Shown one piece after another: positions 3,781 to 44,396 of a DNA stretch of 64,000 nt; the first letter of the stretch is position 1, and each line of letters starts with the position of its first letter. The DNA lies in NCBI GenBank assembly GCA_964016885.1, contig OZ024740.1, positions 220,348,001 to 220,412,000 of the forward strand. The letters run 5' to 3'. The notes under the pieces were generated by a model. The model did no database searches, was not told the origin of the DNA, and saw nothing but the letters and a program-made list of their open reading frames with translations. Source of the DNA: Eledone cirrhosa. Lineage: Eukaryota. The position numbers were made by a program, and so were the translations under genes.

Positions 3781-4090
3781 TTAGGTAAGGCGGGTCTTCT
3801 CTATTACTGAGTACCGCCAAAGGTCTCGGTCCAGTGACATTGTCTTGGAGAGGTGTAAGTGTGTGATGTCGGAGTTTATCAGCTCGTCCCAGGTTTTTCT
3901 AGGTCTGCCTATTCCGTGGCTACCATCTATCTTTATTGCCCTGCACTTTGTTATACAGCTGTCGTCTTTCATGCGCATCACGTGACCATACCAACGTAGC
4001 CTTCTCTCGAGTAAACAATATCTGATCCCTCTTATTTCTAATTTTTTCCTTAGTTTGTTTATGCTTTGCCGTTCAACATAACAAGTAAGG
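3781..4090 (-). mobile_element. RTE LINE 3' fragment; other decayed RTE 3' pieces at ~490-680, 40500-40760, 55130-55455 and 55590-56050
   Basis: ERRLRWYGHVMRM...GRPRKTW. Confidence 0.82.
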
Positions 4091-4552
4091 TTGGTCACTC
4101 TGACCCATTTGGTCTCAGGTCATGACAACCTGTTAGAGCCATGTCAGCATGGTAAAAGAATGTAAAATGGTGATGATGATGGTGGTGGTGCAACAAAGCT
4201 GGCCCTTTGAAATTACAAGTACAGTTGTCCTTTAAAGGTCTATAAGCACTACTCCCCACCACCACCACCACCACCGCTAACAACAACAGAGATTGACCTT
4301 TTCTTGCCTCTCAGTTTAGTCTGTGCCAATTCCCCTGAGACTCATCCCTTTCTCTTTGTTTACAAAGATACCATATAAAATTTATGTTTAACAACATTCA
4401 GCTTTAAAATAAAGCTGCATTAAATAAAAGATAACATTCTTATTTATTTTGTATTTATTTGTCAAAAGAGTTTGGTTCCAGTCATTTCATGTATGGCAAT
4501 GAATCTAAAAACATTTTCTTTATTTGTTTATAATTATTATTCTTCCAATTAA

Positions 4553-4739
4553 TAATGGTTTCTTATATAGGCACAAGGCCAGTAATTACCCAGTACATTA
4601 CTGGTACTTTATTTTATCGACCCTGTAAGGATGAAAGGCAAAGTTGACCTCGGCGGGATTTGAACTCAGAATGGAAAGGGCCGTAACTCTATGCGTCAAA
4701 GCATGACGTCTGACCCTCTACCGATACTGCCAATCCACC
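4553..4739 (-). mobile_element. Nin/Deu-like SINE abutting the Tx1 (ATT)n tail
   Basis: Same consensus as 10711-10897. Confidence 0.85.
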
Positions 4740-4762
4740 ATAATAATAATAATAATAATAAT

Positions 4763-6631
4763 TTCATTTATTAGCCACAAGGGCCGACATATACGGGACA
4801 ATACAATAGACGGGGACAGTGGGGGTTTACATATACAACATGTAAACAATATAAATAACAATAACAAAGTAACAAGAAAAATACAAGAAAAATTCCCCAA
4901 TAGGGGGGATGACCACCCAGGGTTCACTCAGGTACCCCACCAATCCTGAATGACCCGACGCTTCGAGAGCACCCGGGAAGGGCACCTCTCTCCTCCTCTG
5001 GCCACAAGGGCTGACATGTAGGGGACAATACAAAGACACGGACAATAAGCTCGAGTAAAAGTGCACAATGGCAAGACTAATTTAACAATGAAGATATAAA
5101 AATATAAAATAAACTATGCATAAATATAACAAAATAAATTCCCCTATAGTGGGTGGACGACCCAGAAGTGACTCAGGTACCCCACCAATCCTGAACCACC
5201 CTGCACTTCTAGGGCACCCGGGGGGTTGCGAAAGAGGTTATATGGTGGACCAGATTGAAAGGACTGAAGACAGACACTTTTCTCTTCGGCCAATCCCTCA
5301 TCAACTTCTTCAAGTTTCACCTGGAAAGGAAGGTGAGGGTGGAGAGAGAAGTGCTGCCCCACCCCCTCAGTACATTTGCTAAAAGGTGGATGAATGTGGT
5401 GAGAATGGGTGGATGAATGTAATTTGATGGGAGAGCACCCCTCTTCTCCTCAAATTAGCTAGCCTATAGGCACATAGTCAGAATAGGCCCATTCACATGG
5501 GCCATTCTTGCCACATTCACCTACCTTTTAGCAAATGTACTAGGGGGGCAGCACTTCTCTCTCCACCCTCACCTTCCTTTCCAGGTGAAACTAGAAGAAG
5601 TTGATGAGGGATTGGCCGAAGAGAAAAGTGTCTGTCTTCAGTCCTTTCAATCTGGTCCACCATATAACCTCTTTCGCAACTGCCACCAGACAGAGGAAAA
5701 TTGCCTGCTCTTCCAGGCCAAAGGAAAGCGGCAGGTCAATCTTCTCTATGGACTCAGCTGATAACCGGATCCATTCTACATGCGACAATAGCTGTTCAAC
5801 ATAACTCCACAAGTCAGTAATGCACGGACATTGGACAAGTGTGTGCAGAACGGCGCGGACAGGGCAAGGCACGACAATAAGGTGGTAATAGATGACGGAC
5901 ACAATGTACACATTCGCCACCTCCGCGCAACCTTTCAGTGATAGCTTCCTCACAGCCCATTTCTGGGTGAGACTGACTACCCTGCTCATTACCTCGTCCC
6001 AATTCTTTTCCACTTGGAGGTCTGGTCTGAACCAAACCCCGAACAACTTTACCGGTCCATCCGTCCAGCACCCGACGATGTTGTTGGACGGCATGGACTT
6101 GCCTCTCCAGGTGCCAAGCTGCAAGCCCACTGACTTTTCCGGGTTAAGTTTGGCTCCTGTCAACCTTTCATATTCCTTCAATAAGGTGCTGACCACCTCG
6201 ATCTCCGAGGTGTTCGACACCATCACGGTGATGTCATCCGCATAAGCTGACACAGCCTTTCCATGTCCCAGTTTGAGCGGGATGCCCTGCAACAGCTCCA
6301 GCTTCCGCAGTAAAGGCTCAAGAGTCAATATGTACAGAAGGAAAGAGAGAGGGCACCCTTGACGGACCAATCGGGAGAGCCGAAACTGTTCCGAGAGGTG
6401 GCCATTAACCTTGACCACCAAGCAAGTGCTGCTGTGCATTGCAGCGATCCAGCTTCTGAAGACAGGGCTGAAGCCAGCCGCTTTGGGGACAGCCTCCAGA
6501 TACCGATGGTCGACCCTATCGAATGCTTTCGATTGATCTAAATTGGTCAGTGCCCCACCGAAGCTAGGTTTTCACCATAGCCTCTCTATGATGTATTGCA
6601 TGAGGTAGAAGTTGTCATGTATGGACCTGGC
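4763..6631 (-). mobile_element. 5'-truncated, rearranged Tx1-like LINE (related subfamily), with duplicated 3'UTR and an inverted ORF2 segment
   Basis: ORF 5591-6439 (RQGCPLS, YADD, HTLVQC) is homologous to ORF2 at 26.8-28.5 kb with an internal deletion; the 3'UTR motif gccacaaggg occurs twice (~4775, ~5001); (AAT)n at 4740-4762. Confidence 0.88.
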
Positions 6632-7260
6632 TAATGAAATTATTGTGTTCAGTGCTCAGGTGCACTACAACTCATCAAAGGTGCATGTATAGTACATAGA
6701 ATAATGTTCAAATGTCAGGAAAATGAACAGTGTAGGAGTCATGAAATACATGCATGTGTATGGAGGGGGAATATTAGGAAGCATGGAGGTTTTAAAGGAT
6801 GCAGTGTCTCAACAGCTAACAACTGATGCAGGTAATTTGTTCCATGCTTCAGCAACTCTGAGCGTGAAAAAATGTTTCTGAAAGTCATGGGAGCTGTGCT
6901 GTTTTCTGACTTTGTTGGCATGCCCATGTGTGTTAGACACATGGAAATCAAAAAGGTGCGCAGGGTTGTTGTTTGCAAGATGGTTAATAATGTTGTGGGT
7001 GTTTACCAAGTCAGTTGCCAGGCGTCAGAGCTTCAATGTATCCATGTCCAGGGAAGCAAGGCGTTCAGAGTATGGTAGATGCCTGATGGAGGGTATTCGC
7101 TTGGTTGCACGTCCCTGAACAGTTTCCAGGTCGATGTTCTGAGCAAGATAAGGGTTCCAGACTGGTGATGCAAATTCTAAGTGTGGCCACACCATAACTA
7201 TATACAGCTTTAAATAGATAGCTGGAGAGCGGCAAACAAAGGTCTTGCTGAGTGATAAGG
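6632..7260 (-). mobile_element. CR1-clade LINE 3' fragment, same family as 33672-34460
   Basis: Near-identical to the 33.7-34.3 kb copy; ORFs 7025-7384 and 6809-7009 carry the CR1 C-terminal motifs. Confidence 0.88.
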
Positions 7261-8117: not shown

Positions 8118-8830
8118 ACATCATCATCACCATCACCATCATCATCACCACCACCATCATCATCACCACCACCATCATCACCATCATCATCACCATCATC
8201 ATCATCACCATCACCACTATCATCATCACCACCATCATCACCATCATCACCACCATCGTCACCATCACCATCATCATCACCATCATCATCATCACCATCA
8301 CCACTATCATCATCACCACCATCATCACCATCATCACCACCATCATCACCATCACCATCATCATCACCATCATCATCACCATCATCACCATCATTACCAT
8401 CATCACCATCACCATCATCATCACCATCATCATCACCATCATCACCATCATCATCATCATACCATCATCATCACCACCACCATCATCATCATCATCATCA
8501 CCATCATCACCACTATCATCATCACCACCATCATCACCACCATCATCATTATCATCATCACCATCATCACCATCATTATCACCATGATCATCACCACCAT
8601 CATCACCATCATCACCACCATCGTCACCATCATCATCACCATCATCACCATCATCACCATCACCACCATCATCACTATCGTCATCATCATCATCACTATC
8701 ATCACCATAATCATCATCACCACCATCATCACCATCATCACCATCATCACCATCATCATCACCATCATCACCATCATCACCACCATTATCACCATCATCA
8801 CCATCATCACCATCATCACCACCATCATCA
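8118..8830. repeat. (CAT/CAC)n cryptic trinucleotide tract, the expanded tail of a minus-strand SINE
   Basis: Runs directly into caacattttacatcc..ttcatg, the reverse complement of the RTE-type tail. Confidence 0.9.
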
Positions 8831-10540: not shown

Positions 10541-11022
10541 CAAGGCTCAGCTGAAAAGTTCATAGGCTGACTATGAAGAAGTGATGCTAGTGCTGTGAAA
10601 TCTTGCATGCATTAATTTCAACTCTTTTTATTAATTATGTTGAAAAATAAACCTCATTTGGTCGTTCCATGAGAGTATCTTGGTCAGCCTATCATTAATT
10701 TCCATTCTTAGGGCGGTGGATTGGCAGTGTTGATAGAGGGTCGGACGCCATGCTTTGACGTATAGAGTTACGGCCCTTGCCATTCTGAGTTCAAATCCCA
10801 CAGAGGTTAACTTTGCCTTTCATCCTTACGGGGTCGATAAAATAAAGTACCAGTAATGTACTGGGTAATTACTGGCTTTGTGCCAAAAGTAGAAACAATT
10901 AATTTCCATTCTTATTAATAACTGCATCGTTTCTTTCTAGCGACTATATTGAAAAATAAACCTCATTTGGTCATTGCATGAGAGTATCTTGGTCAGCCTA
11001 TGAACTATTCAGCCGACCCTCG
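10541..11022. mobile_element. Tc1/mariner-type MITE interrupted by a SINE
   Basis: TA-flanked imperfect ~31-bp TIRs (..CTGAAAAGTTCATAGGCTGAC / GTCAGCCTATGAACTATTCAG..CCCTCG). Confidence 0.8.
10711..10897 (+). mobile_element. tRNA-derived SINE with Nin/Deu-like central domain; full copy with 17-bp TSD
   Basis: B-box GAGTTCAAATCCC; GCCTTTCATCCTTACGGGGTCGATAAAATAAAGTACCAG core; TSD ATTAATTTCCATTCTTA (10694-10710, 10898-10914). Confidence 0.88.
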
Positions 11023-11177: not shown

Positions 11178-12491
11178 AAATGTGTGTGTGCATGCCTACA
11201 TGTGTGTGTGTGTATGTATCTTTATGTGTGTGTTGGTATATGTATGAGTGTGCATGTGTGTGTGTGTGTGTGTATGTCTGTATATGTTTGTGTGTTGGTA
11301 TATGTATGTGTGTTGGTATGTGTATAAGTGTGCATGTGTGTGTGTGTGAGTTGGTATATGTATGAGTGTGCATGGGTGTGTGTGTGTGTGTGTGTATGTC
11401 TGTATATGTTTGTGTGTTGGTATATGTATGTGTGTTGGTATGTGTATAAGTGTACATGTGTGTGTGTGAGTTGGTATATGTATGAGTGTGCATGCCTGTA
11501 TGTGTGTGTTTATATATGTGTGTTGGCATATGTATGAGTGGGCATATATGTGTGTGTGTGTTTATGTATGTGTTGGCATATGTATGAGTGGGCATATCTG
11601 TGTGTGTGTGTGTGTTGGTGTGTGCTTATGTGTACATATGTGTTTGTGAGGAGGGGTGTGTGTGTGTGTGCATGTGTGTGTGTGTATGTGTGTGTGCATG
11701 TGTGTGTGTGTGCATGTGTGTGTGTGTGCGTGTGTGTGAGCGTGTGTGTGTGTGCATGTGTGTGTGTGCATGTGTGTGTGTGTGCGTGTGTGTGTGCATG
11801 TTGAGAGGGATGGTATTTATCTTTGTGTGTTTGTGTGTGTAGGTGTGCACACACATGCTAGAGTGTTGATGTGTATGTTTATGTGTGTGTATGTATGTGT
11901 GTGTGTGGATTTATGTTAGCATGCATGCCTGTGTGTGTGTGTATCTGTGTGTGTGTGTGTGTATCTGTGTGTGTGTATCTGTGTGTGTGTGTGTTTGTGA
12001 ATGTGTGTGTGTATCTGTGTGTGTGTGTGTGTTTGTGAATGTGTGTGTGTATATGTGTGTGTGTTTGTGAATGTGTGTGTGTATCTGTGTGTGTGTGTTT
12101 GTGAATGTGTGTGTGCATCTGTGTGTGTGTGTTTGTGAATGTGTGTGTGTATCTGTGTGTGTGTGTTTGTGAATGTGTGTGTATCTGTGTGTGTGTGTTT
12201 GTGAATGTGTGTGTGCATCTGTGTGTGTTTGTGAATGTGTGTGTGTATCTGTGTGTTTGTGTGTTTGTGAATGTGTGTGTGTTTGTGAATGTGTGTGTGT
12301 ATCTGTGTGTGTGTGTTTGTGAATGTGTGTGTGTATCTGTGTGTGTGTGTATCTGTGTGTGTGTGTGTTTGTGAATGTGTGTGTGTATCTGTGTGTGTGT
12401 TTGTGAATGTGTGTGTGTATGTGTGTGTGTGTGTGCTTGTGAATGTGTGTGTGTATCTGTGTGTGTGTGTTTGTGAATGTGTGTGTGTATC

Positions 12492-12522
<31 letters not shown>

Positions 12523-13300
12523 GTGGGTATCTGTGTGTGTGTGTTTGTGAATGTGTGTGTGTATCTGTGTGTATCTGTGTGTGTGTGTTTGTGAATGTGT
12601 GTGTGTATCTGTGTGTGTGTGTGTTTGTGAATGTGTGTGTATCTGTGTGTGTGTGTGTTTGTGAATGTGTGTGTGTATCTGTGTGTGTGTGTTTGTGAAT
12701 GTGTGTGTGTATCTGGGTGTGTGTGTTTGTGAATGTGTGTGTGTATCTGTGTGTGTGTGTTTGTGAATGTGTGTGTGTATCTGTGTGTGTGTGTTTGTGA
12801 ATGTGTGTGTGTATCTGTGTGTGTGTGTTTGTGAATGTGTGTGTGTATCTGTGTGTTTGTGTGTTTGTGAATGTGTGTGTGTTTGTGAATGTGTGTGTGT
12901 GTTTGTGAATGTGTGTGTGTATCTGTGTGTGTGTGTTTGTGAATGTGTGTGTGTATCTGTGTGTGTGTGTTTGTGAATGTGTGTGTGTATCTGTGTGTGT
13001 GTGTTTGTGAATGTGTGTGTGTATCTGTGTGTGTGTGTTTGTGAATGTGTGTGTGTATATGTGTGTGTGTGTTTGTGAATGTGTGTGTGTATCTGTGTGT
13101 GTGTGTTTGTGAATGTGTGTGTGTATCTGTGTGTGTGTGTTTGTGAATGTGTGTGTGTATCTGTGTGTGTGTGTGTGTATGTGTATGTGTGTGGGTATCT
13201 GTGTGTGTGTGTTTGTGAATGTGTGTGTGTATCTGTGTGTGTGTGTTTGTGAATGTGTGTGTGTATCTGTGTGTGTGTGTATGTGTATGTGTGCATGTGT
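11178..13300. repeat. Complex (GT)n satellite with TTTGTGAAT / GTATCT punctuation
   Basis: Direct inspection. Confidence 0.95.
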
Positions 13301-14114: not shown

Positions 14115-17100
14115 AATGTATGTGTGTATGTGTATATATATATATATATATATATGAATGTATATGTATGTATCATCATCATCATCATCATCATCATTTT
14201 ACGTCCACTTTTCCCTGCTTGCAAGGGTGGGACGGGAACTGATTCTGGCTTGATTTCTACAGCTAGATGCCCTTCCTAACACAAACCTCATATAGTGTAT
14301 ATGTATATATATGTATATATGTGTGTATGTATGTATGTGTGTATGTGTGTATATATATATATATGAATGTATATGTATGTATATATATATGTATATATGT
14401 GTGTATGTATGTATGTGTGTATGTGTGTATATATATATATATATATGAATGTATATGTATGTATATATATGTACATATGTGTGTATGTATGTATGTGTGT
14501 ATGTGTATATATATATATATATGAATGTATATGTATGTATATATATGTATATATGTGTGTATGTATGTATGTGTGTATATATATATATATATGAATGTAT
14601 ATGTATATATATGTATATATGTGTGTATGTATGTATGTGTGTATGTGTGTATATATATATATATATGAATGTATATGTATGTATATATATGTACATATGT
14701 GTGTATGTATGTATGTGTGTATGTGTGTATATATATATATATATATGAATGTATATGTATGTATATATATATATGTATATATGTGTGTATGTATGTATGT
14801 GTGTATGTGTGTATATATATATATATGAATGTATATGTATGTATATATATATGTATATATGTGTGTATGTATGTATGTGTGTATGTGTGTATATATATAT
14901 ATATGAATGTATATGTATGTATATATGGAAGACGATCGACTTTCGTCAAATCGGACCGAGGAAACAATGTTTCCGTTGGTCTTTCCAATTGCTAATACTA
15001 TCTATCGGTCGCAACTCCAGGTAGAAGGAGCAACGTGAAATAAAGTGTCTTGCTCAAGGACATAACGCATCGCCTGGTCCAGGAATCGAACTCACAACCT
15101 CACGATTGCGAATCCAATTCTCTAACCACTCAGCCACACGCCTTCACTATGTATGTATATATATGTATATATGTGTGTATGTGTGTATGTGTGTATGTGT
15201 GTATATATATATATATATATATGAATGTATATGTATGTATATATATGTATATATGTGTGTATGTATGTATGTGTGTATGTATATATATATATATATATGA
15301 ATGTATATGTATGTATATATATGTATATATGTGTGTATGTATGTATGTGTGTATGTGTATATATATATATATATATATATGAATGTATATGTATGTATAT
15401 ATATGTATATATATATGTGTGTATGTGTGTATATATATATATATATGAATGTATATGTATGTATATATATGTATATATGTGTGTACAAATGTATGTGTGT
15501 ATGTGTGTATATATATATATATGAATGTATATGTATGTATATATATGTATATATGTGTGTATGTATGTATGTGTGTATGTGTATATATATATATATATAT
15601 ATGAATGTATATGTATGTATATCATCATCATCATCATCATCATCATCACCGTTTTACGTCCGTTCTTCCACGCTAACATGGGTTAGACGGGTTGTCCTGT
15701 TGTGGGCAGTGTCTGGTCGGCTGGCCATGCCTTGCTCATACAGGAACTGATTTGGCTTGATTTCTACAGCTGGATGCCCTTCCTAACACCAACCTCATTT
15801 ACAGTGAGTGCTGGGTGCTTTTTCGTGGCGCCTACACGTCCACTTTACAGTGTGGGCTGGGTGCTTTTTTTCCATGTCGCCTACACGACCACCTTGCGGG
15901 GGGGGGGGGGGGGGGGGCATATTGTTTATATGCTTCAGCTTGTACCCATGGGAGGCCGGGTACTCTGTATTACTGCGTGACGCCAGAAGTCACGGTCGTG
16001 TATATATATGTATATATGTGTGTATGTGTGTATGTGTGTATGTGTGTATATATATGAATGTATATGCATGTATATATATGTATATATGTGTGTATGTATG
16101 TGTGTATGTGTGTATATATATATATATGAATGTATATGTATATATATGTATATATATGTGTATGTATGTATTTGTGTATGTGTGTATATATATATATATG
16201 AATGTATATGTATGTATATATATGTATATATGTGTGTATGTATGTGTGTATGTGTGTATATATATATATATATGAATGTATATGTATATATATGTATATA
16301 TGTGTGTATGTATGTATGTGTGCATGTGTGTATATAAATATATATGAATGTATATGTATGTATATATATGTATATATGTGTGTATGTGTGTATGTGTGTA
16401 TATATATATATATATATGAATGTATATGTATATATATGTATATATGTGTGTATGTATGTATGTGTGCATGTGTGTATATAAATACATATGAATGTATATG
16501 TATGTATATATATGTATATATATGTGTATGTATGTATGTGTGCATGTGTGTATATAAATATATATGAATGTATATGTATGTATATATATGTATATATGTG
16601 TGTATGTATGTGTGTATGTGTGTATATATATATATATATATGAATGTATATGTATATATATGTATATATGTGTGTATGTATGTATGTGTGCATGTGTGTA
16701 TATAAATACATATGAATGTATATGTATGTATATATATGTATATATATGTGTATGTATGTATTTGTGTATGTGTGTATATATATATATATATGAATGTATA
16801 TGTATGTATATATATGTATATATGTGTGTATGTATGTGTGTATGTGTGTATATATATATATATATGAATGTATATGTATATATATGTATATATGTGTGTA
16901 TGTATGTATGTGTGCATGTGTGTATATAAATATATATGAATGTATATGTATGTATATATATGTATATATGTGTGTATGTATGTATGTGTGTATGTGTGTA
17001 TATATATATGAATGTATATGTATATATATGTATATATGTGTGTAATGTATGTGTGTATGTGTGTATATATATGAATGTATATGTATATATATGTATATAT

Positions 17101-17488
17101 ATGTGTATGTATGTATGTGTGTATGTGTGTATATATATATATATGAATGTATATGTATGTATATGTATGTATATATATGTATATATGTGTGTATGTATGT
17201 ATGTGTGCATGTGTGTATATATATATATATGAATGTATATGTATATATATATGTATATATGTGTGTATGTATGTATGTGTGTATGTGTATATATATATAT
17301 ATGAATGTATATGTATGTATATATATGTATATATGTGTGTATGTATGTATGTGTGTATGTGTGTATATATATATGAATGTATATGTGTGTATGTATGTAT
17401 GTGTGTATGTGTGTATATATATATATATGAATGTATATGTATGTATATATATGTATATATGTGTGTATGTATGTATGTGTGTATGTGT

Positions 17489-17520
<32 letters not shown>

Positions 17521-18672
17521 GAATGTATATGTATATATATGTATATATGTGTGTATGTATGTATGTGTGTATGTGTGTATATATATATATATATGAATGT
17601 ATATGTATGTGTATATATGTATATATGTGTGTATGTATGTATGTGTGTATGTGTGTATATATATATATATGAATGTATATGTATGTATATATATGTATAT
17701 ATGTGTGTATGTATGTATGTGTGTATGTGTGTATATATATATATATGAATGTATATGTATGTATATATATGTATATATGTGTGTATGTGTGTATGTATGT
17801 GTGTATGTGTGTGTATATATATATATATGAATGTATATGTATATATATGTATATATGTGTGTATGTGTGTATGTGTGTATATATATATATATGAATGTAT
17901 ATGTATGTATATATATGTATATATGTGTGTATGTATGTATGTGTGTATGTGTGTATATATATATATGAATGTATATGTATGTATATATATGTATATATGT
18001 GTGTATGTGTGTATGTGTGTATATATATATATATATGAATGTATATGTATGTATATATATGTATATATGTGTGTATGTGTGTATGTGTGTATATATATAT
18101 ATATATGAATGTATATGTATATATATGTATATATATGTGTATGTATGTATTTGTGTATGTGTGTATATATATATATATGAATGTATATGTATGTATATAT
18201 ATGTATATATGTGTGTATGTATGTGTGTATGTGTGTATATATATATATATATATGAATGTATATGTATATATATGTATATATGTGTGTATGTATGTATGT
18301 GTGCATGTGTGTATATAAATATATATGAATGTATATGTATATATATATATATGTATATATGTGTGTATGTATGTATGTGTGTATGTGTGTATATATATAT
18401 GAATGTATATGTATATATATGTATATATGTGTGTAATGTATGTGTGTATGTGTGTATATATATGAATGTATATGTATATATATGTATATATATGTGTATG
18501 TATGTGTGTGTGTATGTGTGTATATATATATATATGAATGTATATGTATGTATATGTATGTATATATATGTATATATGTGTGTATGTATGTATGTGTGCA
18601 TGTGTGTATATATATATATATGAATGTATATGTATATATATATGTATATATGTGTGTATGTATGTATGTGTG

Positions 18673-18705
<33 letters not shown>

Positions 18706-19572
18706 GAATGTATATGTATGTATATATATGTATATATGTGTGTATGTATGTGTGTATGTGTGTATATATATATATGAATGTATATGTGTGTATGTATGTA
18801 TGTGTGTATGTGTATATATATATATATGAATGTATATGTATGTATATATATGTATATATGTGTGTATGTATGTATGTGTGTATGTGTGTATGTGTGTATA
18901 TATATATATATATATATGAATGTATATGTATGTATATATATGTATATATGTGTGTATGTATGTATGTGTGTATGTGTGTATATATATATGAATGTATATG
19001 TATGTATATATATGTATATATGTGTGTATGTATGTATGTGTGTATGTGTGTATATATATATATATGAATATATATGTATGTATATATATGTATATATGTG
19101 TGTATGTGTGTATGTATGTGTGTATGTGTGTATATATATATATATATGAATGTATATGTATGTATATATATGTATATGTGTGTATGTATGTATGTGTGTA
19201 TGTGTGTATATATATATATGAATGTATATGTATGTATATATATGTATATATGTGTGTATGTATGTATGTGTGTATGTGTGTATATATATATATGAATGTA
19301 TATGTATGTATATATATGTATATATGTGTGTATGTGTGTATGTGTGTATATATATATATATATGAATGTATATGTATGTATATATATGTATATATGTGTG
19401 TATGTGTGTATGTGTGTATATATATATATATATGAATGTATATGTATGTATATATATGTATATATGTGTGTATGTGTGTATGTGTGTATATATATATATA
19501 TATGAATGTATATGTATGTATATATCTGTATATATGTGTGTATGTATGTATGTGTGTATGTGTGTATATATG
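14115..19572. repeat. Large (TA/TG) compound satellite, ~70-80-bp unit starting GAATGTATATGTAT, interrupted by SINE pieces
   Basis: Direct inspection; source of the 888-1279 aa pseudo-ORFs. Confidence 0.95.
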
Positions 19573-21574: not shown

Positions 21575-22690
21575 ATCTATGAGGTAACTCAACCTGCAAC
21601 AAAATCCCTACCCTAAGAAACTAGACGTTACTGTGGTCACTCAACCTGCTAGGCATATCATCAAAATCCCTCCCTTAAGAAACTAGACACTACTGTGGTC
21701 ACTTAACCTGCTAGGCATATCATCAAAATCCCTCCCCTAAGAAACTAGACGTTACTGTGGTCACTCAACCTGCTAGACACAACAACAAAATCCCTACCCT
21801 AAGAAACTGGACCTTACTGTGGTCACTTAACCTGCTAGACACAACAACAAAATCCCTCCTCCCCTAAGAAACTAGACGTTACTGTGGTCACTCAACCTGC
21901 TAGACACAACAACAAAATCCCTCCCCTAAGAAACTGGACCTTACTGTGGTCACTCAACCTGCTAGACACAACAACAAAATCCCTCCTCCACTAAGAAACT
22001 GGACCTTACTGTGGTCACTCAACCTGCTAGACACAACAACAAAATCCCTCCTCCGCTAAGAAACTGGACCTTACTGTGGTCACTCAACCTGCTAGACACA
22101 ACAACAAAATCCCTCCTCCCCTAAGAAACTGGACCTTACTGTGGTCACTCAACCTGCTAGACACAACAACAAAATCCCTCCTCCCCTAAGAAACTGGACC
22201 TTACTGTGGTCACTTAACCTGCTAGACACAACAACAAAATCCCTCCTCCCCTAAGAAACTGGACCTTACTGTGGTCACTCAACCTGCTAGACACAACAAC
22301 AAAATCCCTCCTCCCCTAAGAAACTGGACCTTACTGTGGTCACTCAACCTGCTAGACACAACAACAAAATCCCTCCTCCCCTAAGAAACTGGACCTTACT
22401 GTGGTCACTCAACCTGCTAGACACAACAAAATCCCTCCTCCCCTAAGAAACTGGACCTTACTGTGGTCACTCAACCTGCTAGACACAACAACAAAATCCT
22501 TCCTCCCCTAAGAAACTGGACCTTACTGTGGTCACTCAACATGCTAGACACAACAACAAAATCCTTCCTCCCCTAAGAAACTGGACCTTACTGTGGTCAC
22601 TCAACATGCTAGACATAACAACACCCCACCACCCCACCACCCCACCCACTCAAAATAAAACTGGACCCTACTGTGGTTATTCAGCCAGGC
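21575..22690 (+). repeat. Minisatellite, 62-65-bp unit, about 18 copies
   Basis: Unit CTAAGAAACTGGACCTTACTGTGGTCACTCAACCTGCTAGACACAACAACAAAATCCCTC(CTC)CC; central copies nearly identical. Confidence 0.95.
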
Positions 22691-26481: not shown

Positions 26482-26526
<45 letters not shown>

Positions 26527-26767
26527 TTTTCTTTATTAACCACAAGGGTTTACATAAAGTAGACATTAAGGACAATACAGGACAATACAGGACGGTACAA
26601 ATGGGCATTTCTGCGTGTAAAAAACAGAGGATGAAATAAAATAACAAAGAAAAATTCCCCAATAGGGGGGAGACTTCCGAGGGACATTTGTGGAGAAAGC
26701 CCATTAAAAGACCACAGTGACCCTGACCACCAGGGCAAGTGCCCTCTCCCAGTTTTCCACCCTTAAT

Positions 26768-29700
26768 TTACAGACACATACTTAGAGAAGGCCCATTCAT
26801 TCGGACCATACTTGCTTCTCTCACCCATCTTTCAACAAAATGCTGGGAAGAGAGCACTACCCTCTCTACCCTGATTTTCCTTTTCAAATGAAATTTGAAA
26901 AAGTTAATCAGGGCATCACCGAAGAGGTAAGTGCTCATCTTCAGCCCTTTCAAACGTGTCCACCATACTATCTCTTTCGTCATGGCCACCAGACAGATAA
27001 AAACTGCCTGCCCTTCCCGGCTAAAGGAAGAGGGCGGGGCAATCCTCACGATGGACTCAGCTGATAGCTGGATCCGTCCTACACATGACAGCAGGTGTTC
27101 GACATAAACCCACAAGTCAGCAATGCTCGGACACTGGACGAGTGCGTGCAGGACGGTTTCGTCGCCCTGCGCACATCTCGGACATGCCCAGCTGACGGCA
27201 CCTCCATGCCTGTAGAGTTTATCCCGAACTGGCAAAGCTCCCCGGTAGCACTGCCAGGCCAGGGATTTCTGGAAGTTGTCCATAGGCCCCGGCCCGAAAG
27301 TCCTTCCGAAGAGATTGGCTAGTTGATTTTCGTCGACGCCTAGAGTTTCTCCAAGTACGTCGTCGCTCTTCCCCTCCACTAATCCCCTATAGAACGCCAA
27401 GGTGGAGTTTCCACTGATCACATTGCCCAATTGGTCGAGGGCTGTGAGCGCCTGAAGGCATTCCAGTCTCCAAGCGCTCCCTCTCGGTCTTCACTTGACC
27501 CAGGACTGCAGCTCCGTCAAGGAGACGAGCTGGGGAAAAACGTGTCTAGCAAACGGCGACCACACCTGATCACCGTCGAGGAAGAGGTGGAGATGTCGTA
27601 GCCTGAGCGCGTGTCTGCGCATCATCAGCCACGGCATACCCAGCCCTCCACGTAGCGGGTGTTGACAACAGATGGACCACCTGACCATTGGAGCACGTCC
27701 CTTCCACAAGAAGCGAAAGAGCAAACGCTCCAGCGCAGTCAGGCGGGGCTTAGGACAAGGTACGACGGTCAGGCGGTAGTAGATGACGGACGCGATGTAC
27801 GCATTCGCCACCTCCGCTCGACCTTTCAGGGATAGCTTCCTCTCGGCCTATTTCTGGGTGAGAGAAGCCACCCTGCTCGTCACCTCGTCCCAGTTTTTGT
27901 CCGTCTGGAGGTCTGGACCGAACCAGACCCCTAGCAATTTAACCGGTCCGTACGTCCAGCGCCCGACGACGCTGTTGGACAGCATGTACCTGCCTCTCCA
28001 GGTGCCGAGCTGCAGGCCCACTGACTTTTCCTGGTTGATCATTGCTCCTGTCACCGCTTCGTATTCTCTTAGTGTAGTGCCAATCGCCTCAATGTGTTTG
28101 GCGTTCGACAACACTACGGTGACATCGTCCGCATATGCTGACACGGATCTTCCGCATCCTAGTTCGCGCGGGACCCCCCTCAACGTCTCCAGTTTGTGCA
28201 GTAATGTTCGAGAGTCAATACGTACAATAGGGATGAGAGGGGACATCCTTGGCGGACCGAGCGCATGATGTTGAACGGTTCCGAAAGGTGACCGTTCACT
28301 TTCACCACAGAGCAGATGTCGCTGTGCATGGCAGCGATCCAGCCTCTGAAGACGGGCCCAAAGCCAGCTGCCCTCAGGACTGCCGCTATGTAACGATGGC
28401 CGACCCTATCGAAAGCTTTCGACTCATCTAAATTGATCAAGGACCCATCCGTGCCAGGTTCCCTAGCTACCCTCTCTACGATGTATCGCATGAGGTGGAG
28501 GTTGTCGTGGATGGATCTGTCGGGAATGGCGCATGTCTGTGCCTCTCCCACCAGACCACCAACGACAAGCGCCAACCTCTTTGCTAGCACCTTTGCCAAA
28601 ATCTTGAACTCTGCGTTTAGCAGAGTTATGGGCCTAAAATTATCTATGTTATCCCCCTTGTTCGGATCCTTTCTCAGCAGCGCCACTGCTCCTCGGCTCA
28701 CAGAGCTGGGAATTCTCCCGTTCTGTTGCCAGTTGCAGTAGACGTCCGCCAAGAGGCCTCCGGACAAGTCTGGCATTTGTACGTAAAGTTCATAGGGCAG
28801 ACCATCCAAACCAGGCGATTTACCCCTTGTGCAGCCAGTCATTGCCTCCCGTACTTCAGCGGTTGTTATCGGCTTTTCGCAACACTCCGCCTCAGTGGCC
28901 GAAAGCCGCGGCAGTCCGTTGAGGCAGACACTAAAGTCCATCCCTCGATCCGGCCCGCCACTACCCCCGAACAGTTGAGCAAAGTGTCGCTGAAAAGCCC
29001 GGGATCGAGTAGCATGCGCCCGTCGTGGTCCACCAAAGACCGGATCGTGGCTTTATTGCCCCGACGCGCCTCCGCCACTCGGGCCCATTGAACGGCTTTC
29101 GTCCCCTCGTGTCTGAGAGCACGCACCCTAGCTCTGACAACGCAGCCTTCGTGCTTTGCATTGAAGAATTGGTCAAGGGCCAATTTCGCCGCAAGTACGT
29201 CGGTCGCGATGTCTTTGCTAAGCGCCTCGTCTAATTTTTTAACTAATTCTCCCTCTGCTCTATTTTTCTCTATTGCTAAAGCCTTACTAAACCTAATGGA
29301 CTCTATTCTAATTGCTCTTTTCAGAGCAAACCACCACTTGTTGTTGACGATGGCCCCCGTCAACGCCCGCTTAACTAGTTCGCTAATCCGGTCTCTGTAG
29401 GCCTTGCGCGCTGGTAAGGACGCGTTTAGCTTCCAGTAGCCGGGTCATCGTCTATGAAGCCTACCTAAGTCAAGTACACAGATCACGAATTTGTGGTCCG
29501 TGTAGCTGACTATCTTGAATTGTGGACAGCCTATGCTAGACCTATCTATTTCCCTACAAAATACTCTATCTAGATATGATCTGGATGACCCTATGCAATT
29601 TGTCCAAGTCCACATTGGTACATTCGGGAAATCCATTCGGTACCTCTCAGACAGTTCAAAACGCCTGAGCAGGTTGGTGAGACTCTTGCACCCTCCTTCC

Positions 29701-30173
29701 CTATCCACTAATCCCACACAATCCCAGCGTGCATCTAAGATCCCGTTCCAGTCGCCCACTAACACTAAAGAGCGGGACGTTCCAAGAAAGGTCTCCAGAC
29801 GCCGGAAGAAGTCAGGCCGCCCTGCTCCTGTCGGGGCATAGACGGCCACTAACCTGAAAGCTTGCCCGTCTCCGCTGGTCACGTCCAGCACCACCAACTT
29901 ACCTTCTGGGTCCAGGAAGATGGCCCGTATGGCAAGATCCAAACCTCTCCGAAAAAGCACAGCAACTCCTCCCCCCGATCCCGGACGGCTGGGAGATGCG
30001 TACACATCGTAGCCACCGAAGATCGGTGCGAAAGCCCGTGCTTCGGAGATTCTGGTCTCGCTGATGGCCACTACATCTATGTTTAGTGACCTGAGGTCGT
30101 TGAGCAGGTGGCCCTGCTTCCATGACGACCCCAAGCCACGCGCATTTATACTGCCTATTCTGAGTGAGGTCAT
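26768..30173 (-). pseudogene. Tx1-like ORF2: AP endonuclease + reverse transcriptase + C-terminal CCHC finger, disrupted
   Basis: APE motifs SINARGL, ISETR, VGDWN, YLDRV, TDHK; RT motifs KSPGLDG, FRPITLLN, KAFDRV, RQGCPLS, YADD; CPRC..ETVLHALVQC; in-frame stops at 29445, 27848 and 27491 plus two frameshifts. Confidence 0.93.
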
Positions 30174-30207
30174 GTTGAAAAGGAGTGGAAAAGATGGGAA
30201 AGACCAC

Positions 30208-32186
30208 TTACCTTACTTCTCGTAGGGGAAGGATGGTTTTTCCATCCTTTTCACTGCTTGTGGCCTCCTCAGGAAGGATGTCCTTATAAATCCTCCTGGA
30301 GAGTGCTTGTCGGAAGTCTCCGATGTCTTTGGGGAATTTTTTTTTTAGTGTCATGTACGTTTTCTGTGTGATGCGAGTGATTTGTATGTGTGGAGGTGGT
30401 GTGAATTTTTGGGTTGTTGTGTAGTCTTTTTCTGTGATGCTGGTGTTGTGTTGGATGTAGTGTAATAATTGCTTGTTGTTCAAATTTAATGCTGTGTAGT
30501 GTGTATCGTTTTGGTTGTTTTGTTTTGTTTGCGTTTGTTGTGGGTTTGTTTCTGTTTCGCATTTTGGTGACTTTTGTGGTGTAGGTGATGGTGGTGTTGG
30601 GGTTAATGATGGTGATGGTGTTGGTGTTTGGGTTGATGGGGTTGGTGATGCTGGTGTGGATGGTGGCATATCTGTCCTAACTTTTTTGTTTGTTAATTTA
30701 TTTGTTTCCCTCTGTATTTTGTTTTTGGAGGGGGAAGGAAGAGAATTTTTTCTTTTTTGGTTTCTTTTTTTTTTTCCTGATACCGTTTCCCACTCCTCGT
30801 CGTCACAATCTGTCTCCAGTTGTGATAGGCCGGGGAGTGGAAAATCCTCCACAGGCGTTAGTTTTGGTTGTGGCGTGGTGGATGGTGTAGGCGCTGATGC
30901 TAGTTCTGAAGCGTTGGGTGGTGGTGGTGTTGGTTTTGCTGGTGGTGGTGGTGTTGGTTTTGCTACTGTTGCTGTTATAGTTGCTTCTGTTGTTGCTGCT
31001 ACATTTGTTGCTGCCATCTCTGCTACTGGTGGTGTTGATGGTTGTGTCACTGGGGTGGGTAGGAGAGGTGGTCTCAACCTTTTAGCCTGAGGGCAGAAAG
31101 CCCTTAGGTGGGTTCCTTTACCACAAACGACACACCTAGGCCTTCTGCCCTCGACAATTACGGTGAGGTGGCTGCCGTCAGTGAGGTCTATTACCTCTGG
31201 GATCTCCTCAATGCTTTTTTGGTCCGCTTGGATCAGGAGCTCCATCCCAGATCCGGACCAGTTCTCCTGCTTTTCTTTTGCTATTGCTATTATTTTTGTG
31301 TTGGCTCGATGCCGGCGAGGACGGCCGCTATTAGCCAGGGAATTTCGATGGCCGGTGGAACGTGGGTCACCCTGATCTTTACGAGTCTCTGGCCACAATA
31401 GCTTGGGACGAGTGTGAAGTCGTCACTTCTTAATGGGGCCATGGAGTGTTCTCTAGCCTCCTCTGGTGTTTCAAAGAACACGTCCACAGTTCCATACTTC
31501 TGCCCACGTCTGATGTGGGTTTTTCTTGCCCACACATGTCCCAAAGCTTTTTGGATTTGGGACTCGGATGCCCGTTCCACTCGGCGCGATTTTACATTTA
31601 TTGTTCGATACGACATGGTGCATAGGCGCCGATGCTCCATTTTATTAGGTGGGGGGGTGAGGCTGACCCTGTACCCATCTTTCTTTACCATTTGTTTGGC
31701 ATTTTCTAAATCCTCCTGAGTTACCGTAAATGCTTCGAACTGTTTTGCTACTCTGGGAAAACTGAGGGTGGTTTTTTTAATGTCATTGTTGTTGTTGTTG
31801 CTATCGTTATTTTTGTTATTATTAATTTTAGTTTCAGTTGTGGTGGTGGTGACGTCAGTCGTCTTTGGTGGGGAAGAGTCCATTTTGCTTGATTTCATTT
31901 CGACATCACGAGTTAATTTATTTTTTTCTTCTTTTGTTTCTGTTGTCGCGGTGTTGGTGGGGGTGGTGGTTGTCGCGGTGGTGGTGGTGGTGGAGGCTTT
32001 AACACCTGCAGTCATTGGTAATGGCGGGAAATGAATGTCTGCCTGAGACAAATTTAAAATATTGCTACTGCTTATATTTTTTTTAGTGTTGGCAAACGTA
32101 GTAACATTTACAATGGTGGTGTCGGTGTGAGGTGCTAATTTGTGAGAAAGGCTTTCAGTTGCTTGGTGCAGTGGTGAATTAGCCAT
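30208..32186 (-). pseudogene. Tx1-like ORF1 (gag-like), one frameshift near 31300
   Basis: ORFs 31290-32186 and 30208-31398 overlap out of frame; zinc knuckle CVVCGKGTHLRAFC (CX2CX4HX4C); Pro/Thr-rich tail and basic KKKRNQKRK stretch. Confidence 0.85.
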
Positions 32187-32396
32187 TTTTTTTTCAAAGA
32201 AATTTTTTGATAATCATAAAAGTTTAAATTTTGGGCACAAGGCCCCAATCATTTTGGGTGTCCTTTTCGGAAAACAATGTATGTGCGCTTATATATAGTT
32301 AACAATAAAAATTTTCCATAAATGGCAATTTTTAACAAACGGAAATCACAAACCTTTGCGGAGCTCACGATGATACGATTTACTACGTAGGTCACC

Positions 32397-32430
<34 letters not shown>

Positions 32431-32431
<1 letters not shown>

Positions 32432-33671
32432 ATGCACAGAATGCATCACCCTAAGGAAGATACAGATAGAATATATCTCCCTAGGAAAGAAGGAGGACGT
32501 GGATTAATCCAGTTAGATATTGCGTTGAAAACTGCAACAATTGGATTATCTACATATCTAAGGGAATCACATGATTGGATGATCAAACTCGTTTTGAAAC
32601 ACGAAAGCATCAAAAGATCATACTCCATTACAAAAGATGCACAAAGATACAGTAATGAACTACAAATATCAGAGGTTCCATTTACTGCTGAAATGTAAAA
32701 CACAGAAAAAGCAAAGCAGGTAAAAGTAACTGTAAAGAAAGAACTGCTACAGAAACTAGCTAAGAAATGGCAAGAAAAGCCTCTGTATGAAAAATACCGA
32801 GAAAGAGCTAACAATCCTGATGTTGACAAAACTTTAACCCATCAGTGGTTGGCATCCTCTGGACTGAAATCGGAGACTGAAGGACTGATTATATCAGCAC
32901 AAGATCAGTGTCTGCCAACAAAAAATTACCAAGCCAACATAATAAAAAATGGATGCAACCCATTATGCCGTGTATGTAAAAAAACAACCAGAGACCATTG
33001 ATCATATAATTTCAATGTGCAGTCCTATAGCTCCACCCGAATACCTAAACAGGCACGACAGAGCTGCACAATACATACATTGGATAATGTGTAAGCATTT
33101 TGACCTGCCTCATCAAAAGAATTGGTGGGAGCATCAACCACCTCCCATACTTGAAAAAGATCACATCTCAATCTTGTGGAACTTTAGCATCCAAACAGAC
33201 CGAAAAATAGATGCAAATAGACCTGATATAATACTGAAGGACTTTAAAAAGAGGGTATGTCTGTTAATTGATATGTCCGTTCCAATAGACAAGAATGTAT
33301 CTATAAAAACATTTGAAAAATTGAGCAAGTATAAGGACCTGGAGATAGAAATTGGAAAAATGTGGAAATTGAGAACTAAAACAATACCAGTGGTTGTAGG
33401 TGCTCTAGGAATGATACCTAAGGGGTCTAATGATTACTTATCGCAAATCCCAGGAAAATAGGAGAAATACAAAAGATAGTACTAATGGGAACTGTCCATA
33501 TACTAAGGAAGATTCTGTCAATATAAGTACATCACAAGTCTAAACACCTAAAGATGCATGTGTGTTTATCTATGTTCTTTCTTGAACATGGTGGACCTTG
33601 TTGTCTCTTGAAGTCACTGGTTGTGACTTGGTGATAACTCGTATGAACATAAAGCAAGATAAATGCAACTG
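32431..33671 (+). mobile_element. 5'-truncated Dong/R4-clade non-LTR element (RT C-terminus, CCHC finger, restriction-like endonuclease, 3'UTR)
   Basis: HHPK..RIYLPRKEGGRGL; IISAQDQ; CRVC..ETIDHIISMC; RHD; RPDII..D.SVP; K..KY; IPVVVGALG; starts right after (AAT)n and ends in TAATAATAA. Confidence 0.88.
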
Positions 33672-34460
33672 TAATAATAAAAATGAAATTATTGTGTACA
33701 GTGCTCAGGTGCACTACAACTCATCAAAGGTGCATGTATAGTGCATAGAATAATATATAAATGTCAGGAAAGTGAACAGTGTATTTGTCATGATATATAT
33801 GTGTGTATGGAGGGGGGATATCAGGTGTAGTGTTGGCAAATTTCAGGAAGCATGGAGGTTTTAAAGGATGCAGTGTCCTGACAGCTAACAACTGATGCAG
33901 GTAGTTTGCTCCATGCTTCAGCAACTCTGAGCGTGAAAAAGTGTTTCTGAAAGTCATGGGAGCTGTGCTGTTTTCTGACTTTGTAGGCATGCCCATGTGT
34001 GTTAGACACATAGAAATCAAAAAGGTGCTCAGGGTGGTTGTTGGCAAGATGGTTAATAATCTTGTGGGTGTTTACCAAGTCAGTTGCCAGACGTTGGAGC
34101 TTCAATGTATCCATGCCCAAGGAAGCAAGGCGTTCAGAGTATGGTAGATGCCTGATGGAGGGTATTCACTTGGTTGCACATCCCTAAACAGTTTCCAGGT
34201 CAATATTCTGAGCAAGATAGGGGTTCCAGACTGGTGATGCAAATTCTAAGTGTGGCCGCACCATAGCTATATACAGCTTTAAATAGATAGCAGGAGAGCG
34301 GCTGACAAATGTCTTGCTGAGTGATGCTAAGACACACTCAGCATTCTAGACAATTTTAGAGATGTACTTTGTCCAATGCAAATCGCTGCTGACAGTAATG
34401 CCCAGGTCACATTCACAAGAAGAGTTCTTGATATTAGTGTTGTAGAGGGAGTATGTGGAT
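33672..34460 (-). mobile_element. CR1-clade LINE 3' fragment
   Basis: RPHLEFASPVWNPY, RATK, YSERLASL, FF..RV.EAW.KLP motifs; 3'UTR hairpin AGTGC-ACCTGA-GCACT then ATT tail. Confidence 0.88.
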
Positions 34461-35376
34461 GCTCTCTTCTTTCACCATCTTGCTATTCTCTCATTCTTTT
34501 CATCCTCTTGGTCATGTTACCTTTCACTCTTAACATCATATAATGATGCAGCTAAAAATATATACAACCAATTTATTAATTCAAAAGTTCATAGTATCTT
34601 TATTAGTAGACACATCATTGGAGAAATTTGCAGTACTAAAGTAAAGACATACATTTTTAATGTGAAGTAGACAGTGCTGTTTTGTGCTTTTTGAGAATGT
34701 CTTGCTAATGGGGTTTTATGTGGTACAGGATGTGAAGAATCAAAAGAATTGAAAATATGTTGAGTGGAAAGAAGTTCTTAGCTTTAAGGTGAGCATGATA
34801 ATATTTCTAGTGCTGGTGCCATGATAAATTTACCCAGTACTCTCTGTATGGTGATTGATGATCAAACGAAAGCAATGTAGAATAGTGAGGGCTCTTCAGT
34901 TTTGGTGGGTACAAAACAACCTCACTAATGTTGATGTCACGATAAAAGTTACTCAGGACACATTTAAAGAAATACCAGAATTCCTACTGAATCATGAAAA
35001 GATATTTTTTTCCTGTTTTTTCTTCTTATATGATTTGTTTTTTCTTTTTTCTTGTAAACAAATCCATCTTTATAATTCTATTATTGTGTTTCAGGAAATT
35101 CCCACTGGAAATTGTTTCCTATTACCTTTCCCAGATATAAAAATATTTAAAATTTAGGTTGGGTGAAGGAATAAGAGTGATCTGATGTCACTACTAATGT
35201 AAGAGAAAGGAAATAGCTAGAAGTGAGAATTAAAATCGGTTAAGAAATTGGTACCAAAAAGGTTGATCCTCATCATACCAAACTTCCTAAAACCATTCTT
35301 GTTTTATGATACATATCTGCTCATTTTTTAAATGTTCATACTTTTATTAAAACTCTCCATTATAATTTTATTTAAG

Positions 35377-35560
35377 TGGATTGGCAGTATTGGTAGAGGG
35401 TCGGTCGCCATGCTTTGCAACATAGAATTACAGCTCTTTATGTTCTGAGTTCAAATCTCACCAAGGTTAACTTTGCCTTTCATCCTTACAGGGTCAATAG
35501 AATAAAGCACCAGTAATGCACTGGGATAATTGCTAGCCTTGTGCCAAAAGTAGAAACAAT
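35377..35560 (+). mobile_element. Nin/Deu-like SINE with ~17-bp TSD, inside a TTAA MITE
   Basis: Flanks ATTATAATTTTATTTAA / ATTATAATTCTATTTAA. Confidence 0.82.
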
Positions 35561-36724
35561 TATAATTCTATTTAAGAAATATTTGTTAAGTAATGTTTCA
35601 AACATTAGCTTACTAATGAAAATGTTATCTCATTTCATTCTTCAAACTTTCAAAATTAATTGATACACATAGGCAACCGTGTATATCTCAGTTATTGGAA
35701 TAGGTACATCATATTTCTGCATGTCATAAGAATTGACTACTTGTAAAAGGGCTGGTGTCAGGTAGAGCATCTGGCTGTAAAATTCTGTCTCTAAAATATC
35801 CTGTCCAACCCATGCCAGCATAAAAAATTGGATGTAAAAGTAATGGTGGTGGTGGTGGTGGTGGTGGTGGTAATGATGATGATGATGGTGATAATGATGA
35901 TGATAACAAGGCAGTGTATTTCACTAGAAGTACAGTAACAAAAGGGTTAGCAGGAGTTTTCCATCTGTTAATTCTACAGCTCTTACCATATAAAGTCTAA
36001 GAAAGAGCATTTTGTCATAGTTTCATTACTTTATTACTTTCAATTAAACACATCAGAATAAAATGGTAGTTTACAAGATTTTCTGGCAGTGTTTGTAGCT
36101 ATTTAAGCACAAATAAATCATTATACTGAGGATGTGATACTGAAAATATAATGGGATTTTAAACTGGTATATATTCTGGTTAATTTACCATGTTAAAGGA
36201 CAGCAATGAGTTCAGCTGTGGCAGAACCACATCTAGCCAAACTTTGTAGCTGACACTCTTGTGGACACAATAAGAAGAAGAAGCATGTTAAATATTGTTC
36301 CAGTTCTCTGAACTATGAGTTCAAAGCCCATTAAGAGCCACTTTGTATTCCACCCTTATATGCTCGATAAATAAAGTACAATCCTACTACTAATGTAATC
36401 CTCTCTCTCCTCCCAGTTATTTCTTCCGGAGAGTTCCACTAGATCAGAGGAGAGAGGATCAAGAGAATGTCTGAGTCTCTTCCTGACTACATGCACCCCT
36501 AAAACCTTTAGTGAAAACATGGTTCAAACTACCAAGTCATACTCAATTGTAAGTGATGGCTGTAGTTTTATTGTGCTACATTTGCATGGCAGAGTTGTTA
36601 AGAAACTTGTTTCACAATCATAAGAGCCCAGGTTCAATCCCCATGGAATTTAGGGCATCTTCTGTAATCTCAAGTCAACCCAAGCATTGATAATACAATT
36701 GGCTAAATGGAAATGATGCCTCTG

Positions 36725-44215: not shown

Positions 44216-44396
44216 GGATTTGCAGTATCGGTAGAGGGTCGGACGCCATGCTTTCCAGCATAGTTACGTCCCTTTACGATCTGAGTTCAAATCCCGCTGA
44301 GGTTGACTTTGCCTTTCATCCTTACGGGGTCGATAAAATAAAGTACCAGTAATGCACTGGGTATTTGTTGGCCTTGTGCCTAAAGTAGAAACAATT
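44216..44396 (+). mobile_element. Nin/Deu-like SINE with TSD ATTAATCTTAT
   Basis: Family consensus; direct repeat on both flanks. Confidence 0.84.

What the first reader, a model, noticed from the sequence alone, without database searches (positions are those of the whole stretch)
4553..7260. Second independent nest: Tx1 subfamily joined to a CR1 (ATT) tail, with a SINE in the same tract
Seen: on the minus strand CR1 ends ...CAATAATTTCATTA and is followed directly (6632/6631) by a 5'-truncated Tx1-like ORF2, its 3'UTR, (ATT)7, then a SINE head. Geometry and orientation match the 26-34 kb nest, but this Tx1 copy is diverged and differently truncated, so it is not a segmental duplicate. Both Tx1 copies in the window sit in CR1 tails. 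Inference: a strand-oriented (ATT)n-specific Tx1 family, which I do not recognise as described for cephalopods.
Basis: partly seen in the sequence, partly recalled or inferred. Interest (0 to 1): 0.72.

Follow-up and report, generated by a model that had tools for sequence, protein, structure and literature searches.

The report
Retrotransposon family targets ATT microsatellites
Across this genome, probably an octopus's, copies of a Tx1-like jumping gene sit directly behind runs of the repeat ATT and always face the same way, likely because their own cutting enzyme picks that repeat, which adds a new target to a known kind of repeat-seeking element.

Summary
The nest is real and the strand-specific (ATT)n targeting holds genome-wide, but the CR1 tail is incidental. 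In two young subfamilies, 56 of 78 sampled 5' junctions follow an ATT run of 9 nt or more on the element's strand, and none follows AAT. This includes 18 of 38 truncated copies. CR1, which also ends in ATT, scores 0 of 28; background is about 0.1%. Empty sites confirm the run pre-exists: 26 of 30 copies of an RTE 5'UTR run are empty, and four Tx1 copies with different truncations occupy that same site. CR1 flanks only 1 of 78 copies. Corrections: the window element is two fragments (subfamilies A and B), its own 5' junction keeps one ATT, and a Dong-like piece separates CR1 from the 26-32 kb copy. Readable duplications are about 13-20 bp and mostly begin ATTA. The SINE shares these and a CUUGU-loop 3' hairpin, so Tx1 likely mobilises it. 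Endonuclease choice and Tx1-clade membership are inferred, not tested. This scan noted the same targeting and hairpin before at other loci of this genome.

The parts
6633..7256 (-). CR1-clade LINE, 5'-truncated 3' fragment; tail reduced to one ATT unit
   Evidence: translation with CR1-type C-terminal motifs (recalled label) and 90% match to 33682-34325; other CR1 copies end in several ATT units
5853..6632 (-). Tx1-like subfamily A, 5'-truncated ORF2 (RT domain)
   Evidence: 91.7% to subfamily A reference positions 3876-4657; Pfam RVT_1 E 4e-18
5430..5852 (-). Subfamily A ORF2 C-terminus and start of 3'UTR, after a ~590-bp internal deletion
   Evidence: reference positions 5246-5665, 90.8%
5225..5408 (+). 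Inverted duplicate of the ORF2 end (rearrangement private to this copy among those compared)
   Evidence: reference 5596-5419 reversed, 92.9%; self-match
4999..5222 (-). Subfamily A 3'UTR, ending just after the terminal hairpin (5012-5000); polyA signal and tail missing
   Evidence: reference 5664-5897, 88.5%; sequence
4763..4998 (-). 3' end (236 bp) of a second, older-looking subfamily B
   Evidence: 73% to A reference; 85-94% to loci L032-L060, many of which continue upstream into Tx1-like ORF2
4773..4785 (-). Terminal hairpin GGCC-CTTGT-GGCT of the B fragment
   Evidence: sequence; pair counts across copies
4740..4762 (-). (ATT)7 run between the B fragment and the SINE
   Evidence: Tandem Repeats Finder
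4557..4739 (-). SINE with A-box/B-box-like head (recalled motifs) and terminal hairpin TGGC-CTTGT-GCCT at 4581-4569
   Evidence: abundant repeat, 93-96% hits; duplications; hairpin; no Rfam family
26526..32396 (-). Full-length, frameshifted copy of young subfamily C (ORF1 with CCHC knuckle; APE-RT-zinc finger ORF2)
   Evidence: 97-99% hits to its 3' end
32397..32430 (-). (ATT)11 at the 5' junction of the C copy
26482..26525 (-). (ATT)14 at the 3' junction of the C copy
32431..33660 (+). 5'-truncated Dong/R4-like element (restriction-like endonuclease) in the same ATT run, opposite orientation
   Evidence: CCHC and RPD..D motifs in translation; family label from recalled motifs and PMC3812793 passage on Dong/TAA

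Best explanation
This is a stack of insertions by an L1-group, Tx1-like LINE family whose copies sit directly behind (ATT)n runs in one orientation; its APE endonuclease likely nicks the (AAT) strand at about 5'-ATAAT/R-3', and the freed end would prime reverse transcription from an RNA likely recognised by a CUUGU-loop 3' hairpin. Shown: orientation, 5'-junction enrichment, pre-existing empty runs, 13-20-bp duplications mostly beginning ATTA, and the covarying hairpin. Inferred: the nick site, pairing of a short AUU(AU) RNA end with the primer, hairpin binding by ORF2p, and trans-mobilisation of the SINE. Each insertion leaves ATT on both sides, so tails of Tx1, SINE, CR1 and Dong become landing pads. 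Young subfamilies A and C mostly use long runs; old subfamily B and the SINE mostly use short ATTA(T) sites. In this window, A likely entered CR1's tail and B entered A's tail, each with loss of target bases at the 5' junction, and the SINE used the same tract.
For: 5' junction rule (9 nt or more of perfect ATT ending within 6 nt): A 25 of 39, C 31 of 39, AAT 0 of 78, CR1 0 of 28, background 0.09-0.15%; Fisher p 3e-12 overall and 8e-6 for truncated copies alone. Empty sites: 26 of 30 RTE 5'UTR copies hold a bare ATT run, and four A copies occupy it with truncations at 825, 3067, 3233 and 3678. Readable duplications: SINE 15 of 30 (null 4 of 150), B 6 of 23 (3 of 150), C 4 of 39 (2 of 150), CR1 1 of 26, a TA repeat. 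Dong neighbours are opposite in 37 of 37 flanks; Tx1 neighbours are co-oriented in 22 of 24. Hairpin stems: AACC/GGTT in 38 of 39 C, GGCC/GGCT in 24 of 36 A, GGCC/GGCC in 13 of 23 B, TGGC/GCCA in 22 of 30 SINE; loop absent from 26 of 26 CR1 ends. ORF2 has APE, RT and zf-RVT domains with APE motifs present; best solved relative is human L1 ORF2p, E 5e-54. Tx1L endonuclease nicks almost only its own target (PMC1950540, passages).
Against: Truncated copies pass less often than full-length ones (18 of 38 vs 38 of 40, p 2e-6). An extra sample from A's 3' end passed 1 of 8 (three of these are internal deletions whose true 5' end was not reached). Old subfamily B passes 3 of 23 and the SINE 6 of 30. 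The window's own junction fails the rule. Samples are top-scoring hits, not random draws. A's readable duplications (3 of 36) do not exceed the null (16 of 150). No biochemistry; PMC1950540 (abstract) says factors beyond nicking specificity shape L1 integration sites.
Confidence: 0.68

Rival explanations
1. Targeting is real but is set mainly by RNA-DNA pairing: a loosely A/T-specific endonuclease nicks widely, and only nicks whose 3' end can anneal to an (AUU)n read-through tail are extended. Long read-through, perhaps also at the 5' end, would favour long runs.
For: Duplications begin with the same letters as the element's tail. Full-length copies have runs far more often than truncated ones, as expected if co-transcribed 5' AUU helped finish integration. 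SINE and B, with the same hairpin, use short sites.
Against: CR1 has an ATT tail and shows 0 of 28, though it uses a different enzyme. L137 and L153 have no added ATT between element end and duplication, so long tail pairing is not required. Truncated copies cannot carry a 5' extension, yet 18 of 38 sit behind runs.
Confidence: 0.26
2. No active targeting: ATT runs are the element's own tail or 5' read-through, and stacks arise by chance, template jumping or survival in repeat-rich DNA.
For: 18 of 78 upstream flanks are co-oriented Tx1 sequence, which template jumping could also give; L260 has a 9-nt tail remnant inside a longer duplication.
Against: Empty paralogous sites hold the run already; random truncation points sit behind runs; strict polarity; 30 of 78 upstream flanks match none of the eight repeat references used.
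Confidence: 0.05
3. The family specifically targets CR1 3' tails.
For: Both nests in this window lie in a CR1 tail tract.
Against: CR1 upstream of 1 of 78 copies; Tx1 behind 1 of 30 CR1 tails, the window's own.
Confidence: 0.01

Closest known systems
Kibi (TC)n and Koshi (TTC)n of teleosts; crocodilian Tx1 families in (TTCC)n/(TTTC)n (PMC4494074, passages and section 15; PMC3812793, passage)
   Same: APE-type L1-group LINE inserted into a microsatellite; more than 20% of flanks are the target, the criterion used in PMC4494074
   Different: Target is (ATT)n, not a pyrimidine-only repeat; host looks like a cephalopod; kinship to Kibi/Koshi was not tested
Dong (R4 clade), TAA-specific (PMC3812793, passage)
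   Same: Same microsatellite; the two share runs in this genome
   Different: Dong-like copies here carry restriction-like endonuclease motifs and face the other way in 37 of 37 flanks
SINEU / Tx1-Mar of crocodilians (PMC4494074, passages)
   Same: SINE assigned to a Tx1 partner by shared target preference
   Different: Here the SINE also shares a covarying 3' hairpin, and the target is ATTA(T), not a Mariner element
Stringent LINE/SINE pairs with a 3' stem-loop: ZfL2-1/ZfL2-2 (PMC4176376, passages); maize LINE1-1_ZM lineage (PMC3472496, passages)
   Same: Variable stem with conserved loop near the 3' end, shared by LINE and SINE
   Different: 4-bp stem with CUUGU loop in an animal L1-group element; binding untested
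L1-Tx1 families in cephalopod repeat catalogues (PMC13282606, part 1 of 3 and term search; PMC8967140, passages)
   Same: L1-Tx1 is listed; 13 recently active families in Octopus vulgaris
   Different: No target analysis in the text seen ('target' 0 occurrences in PMC13282606); supplements not seen

Membership tests
L1 group non-LTR retrotransposon | ORF2 with APE endonuclease, RT and C-terminal zinc finger | tested here: met
   Pfam PF03372, PF00078, PF13966; human L1 ORF2p E 5e-54 over residues 9-857 versus R2 E 6e-17
L1 group non-LTR retrotransposon | 5' truncation and 10-20-bp target-site duplication | tested here: met
   truncation points spread along the element; duplications of 13-21 bp where readable
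Tx1 clade | RT phylogeny groups it with Tx1L, Keno, Kibi, Koshi, Dewa | not testable with these tools
   no named Tx1 reference came back; the tree of unnamed relatives only groups A, C, P0001 and P0002 (quick tree)
Tx1 clade | ORF1 with a CCHC zinc knuckle (recalled as typical of Tx1 and absent from mammalian L1) | tested here: met
   C-x2-C-x4-H-x4-C in ORF1 of A and C; no Pfam hit for ORF1
Target-specific LINE (criterion of PMC4494074) | One sequence type in more than 20% of flanks | tested here: met
   A 25 of 39, C 31 of 39; B only 3 of 23 by the long-run rule
Target-specific LINE (criterion of PMC4494074) | Endonuclease nicks the target specifically | not testable with these tools
   needs an in vitro nicking assay
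Kibi/Koshi | (TC)n or (TTC)n target | tested here: not met
   junction runs are ATT; works like them but is not filed as a member
Dong/R4 | Restriction-like endonuclease C-terminal to RT | tested here: not met
   the Tx1-like ORF2 has an N-terminal APE; the neighbouring opposite-strand element has the motifs
Stringent SINE/LINE pair | Shared 3' stem-loop with compensatory changes | tested here: met
   four stem variants around one loop, 16-17 nt from the end in A, C and SINE
Stringent SINE/LINE pair | LINE ORF2p binds the hairpin and mobilises the SINE in trans | not testable with these tools
   needs binding or trans-complementation assay

The most novel reading that the evidence does not exclude
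One LINE lineage is caught evolving microsatellite specificity: from a 5-bp ATTAT preference (old subfamily B, and the SINE it carries in trans) to near-exclusive use of long (ATT)n runs (young A and C). It uses the strand opposite to Dong's, and it is the carrier of a dominant octopus SINE through a CUUGU hairpin, so the pair seeds its own landing pads genome-wide.
Probability: 0.35. Interest if true: 0.66.

Novelty: new variant of a known kind. Interest (0 to 1): 0.5.

Why it matters
It adds (ATT)n to the targets known for APE-type LINEs in the papers I could search, where TAA was listed only for Dong. Subfamilies with loose and tight preference in one genome make a standing question testable: whether endonuclease loops or RNA pairing create microsatellite specificity. 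It names a likely carrier for a very abundant SINE and explains why ATT runs here collect stacks of elements. The concept itself (Tx1-type microsatellite targeting, stringent SINE pairs) is established, so it is an extension and not a new kind.

Tried and rejected
CR1-tail specificity: rejected. Segmental duplication of the two nests: rejected (76% identity, different subfamilies). Non-independence: L070, L075 and L095 share both flank types and a full-length 5' end; counting them once gives 54 of 76. Clade placement: two protein searches, a cluster look-up and the Atlas gave no named Tx1. Expression: no RNA holder listed. Empty site of this very locus in other runs: contigs were swamped by repeats, uninformative. 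Rfam: only sub-threshold chance hits, one from the internal inversion. Kojima and Fujiwara 2004 was not held and the supplements of PMC4494074 were not readable; its Fig. 3 target list, Repbase entries and the supplements of the octopus papers could already record an ATT-targeting family. Searches that found no such report. Dropped rows: two CR1 loci whose 5' end was not reached; six B loci with unresolved ends (L035, L042, L044, L054, L055, L060); of the 13 rows, one repeat of L095, two sub-hits and two loci without a 5' end. B junctions and seven C junctions were set by hand; the B element-end position is offset, so its 12-nt distance is not used.

Full report
Observation. The Tx1-like part is not one copy. 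Against a reference built from 13 long relatives it is a 5'-truncated subfamily A copy with a ~590-bp deletion and an inverted 184-bp piece. Its 3'UTR stops just after the terminal hairpin and is joined to the last 236 bp of another subfamily, B. At the CR1 junction one ATT unit remains and the A at 6632 fits both sides. The copy at 26526-32396 is a third, young subfamily, C (97-99% hits). It is flanked by (ATT)11 and (ATT)14, and a Dong/R4-like piece in opposite orientation separates it from CR1. The host is a 3.0-Gb genome; that it is an octopus is my inference from the repeat mix and the earlier notes.

Family. ORF2 has APE, RT and zf-RVT domains, its best solved relative is human L1 ORF2p, and ORF1 has a CCHC knuckle. 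That makes it L1-group and Tx1-like. Membership of the Tx1 clade could not be tested because no named reference sequence was available. Among the long copies checked, none had a complete ORF2 (longest 1042 codons, with a deletion).

Genome-wide test. I fetched the 39 best relatives of A and the 39 best of C and located each 5' junction. The rule, written after I had seen the junctions and then applied to every class alike, was 9 nt or more of perfect ATT on the element's strand ending within 6 nt of the junction. A passed 25 of 39 (full-length 12 of 14, truncated 13 of 25) and C 31 of 39 (26 of 26, 5 of 13). None of the 78 had AAT. CR1, whose copies also end in ATT, passed 0 of 28, and background was 0.09-0.15%. 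Truncated copies alone differ from CR1 at p 8e-6. Against this: an extra sample from A's 3' end passed 1 of 8, old subfamily B 3 of 23 and the SINE 6 of 30. Several misses are later breaks or degenerate runs, and several abut another element's 3' end with the run lost, like both junctions in this window. The samples are top hits and lean to young, long copies.

The run is there before the element. Four A copies share one flank, the 5'UTR of an RTE-like LINE (label from recalled motifs), with four different truncation points. Of 30 copies of that RTE site, 26 are empty and hold a bare ATT run. The other four carry Tx1-A (one of my query copies), an opposite-strand Dong-like element, a short Tx1-C and a SINE end. 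Upstream hosts of the 78 copies were Tx1 20, Dong 15, SINE 8, RTE 4, CR1 1 and none of these 30. So the target is the run, whoever supplied it.

Cut site and partner. Where the target is not pure ATT, duplications of about 13-20 bp can be read. They were found in 15 of 30 SINEs, 6 of 23 B and 4 of 39 C, against 4, 3 and 2 of 150 in mismatched pairs; 12 of the 15 SINE duplications begin ATTA, and the base before them is C in 8, T in 5, A in 2. This points to a nick near 5'-ATAAT/R-3' on the other strand, comparable to L1's 5'-TTTT/AA-3' (PMC1950540, passages). The exact offset cannot be fixed, because AUU at the RNA end could be copied. Only 5-14% of ATTAT sites start a run of 9 nt or more, so the SINE and B fit a short-site preference while A and C are much tighter (p 2e-6 and 1e-6). 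All three subfamilies and the SINE end in a 4-bp hairpin with loop CTTGT and different, compensating stems; CR1 does not. I noted the end resemblance and hairpin before the look-up that showed earlier agents had too. The endonuclease hairpin loop that Repanas et al. tie to specificity is WTNR(M/I)GSSR in A and C, the same length as L1's.

Mechanism. Most likely the endonuclease selects the AAT strand, a short AUU end pairs with the primer, and ORF2p grips the RNA hairpin; all three steps are inferred. The main rival is selection by RNA pairing, which the excess of runs at full-length 5' ends keeps alive. Passive accumulation and CR1 specificity are excluded.

Known versus new. Microsatellite-targeting Tx1 families are known for (TC)n, (TTC)n, (TTCC)n and (TTTC)n (PMC4494074, passages and section 15), and TAA is listed for Dong (PMC3812793, passage). 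Octopus catalogues list L1-Tx1 and Dong-R4 without target analysis in the text I saw (PMC13282606, part 1 of 3 and term search; PMC8967140 and PMC9115989, passages). PMC4640811, PMC3747384 and PMC4758252 (passages) added no ATT case. Eight searches found no ATT-targeting Tx1 or Tx1-SINE hairpin pair, but Repbase, the 2004 paper and supplements were not seen.

Noticed in passing
L235-L264, 1640-1700 in element orientation (RTE-like LINE 5'UTR): A young RTE-like LINE carries an (ATT)n run in its 5'UTR and so spreads landing pads; 4 of 30 copies are already occupied by Tx1, Dong or SINE sequence.
   Followed up: partly
L260, about 1615-1865 in element orientation: A short Tx1-C insertion with a ~27-bp duplication starting at ATTAAT outside the pure run, and a 9-nt tail remnant of another subfamily at its 5' junction: second insertion or template jump.
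   Followed up: no
L175, L180, L191: A subfamily with C-type ORF2 but a different 5'UTR and ORF1 (swap just upstream of ORF2); all three also start right after (ATT)n.
   Followed up: partly
window 32228-32248 (-): A second CTTGT-loop hairpin (GGGC/GCCC stem) in the 5'UTR of subfamily C; subfamily A lacks a paired one.
   Followed up: partly
L071, 1100-1334 in element orientation: Inverted 5' end of a subfamily A copy that includes upstream ATT and a piece of another Tx1 3'UTR, which could reflect a transcript starting in the flank.
   Followed up: no
window 50900-52008 (+): Another broken RT element in which an RT segment is followed in frame by a PHD finger (Pfam).
   Followed up: no
L063, L078, L085 upstream flanks: Another unidentified repeat with a degenerate ATT/GTT run hosts three near-full-length A copies.
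   Followed up: no
window 10715-10900, 35376-35561, 44215-44396: Three SINE copies with clear 10-17-bp duplications beginning ATTA.
   Followed up: yes
window 8119-8830, 11183-13300, 14300-19571, 21607-22623, 36803-37575: Long simple-repeat and minisatellite arrays; the long ORFs over them look like artefacts of low complexity.
   Followed up: no
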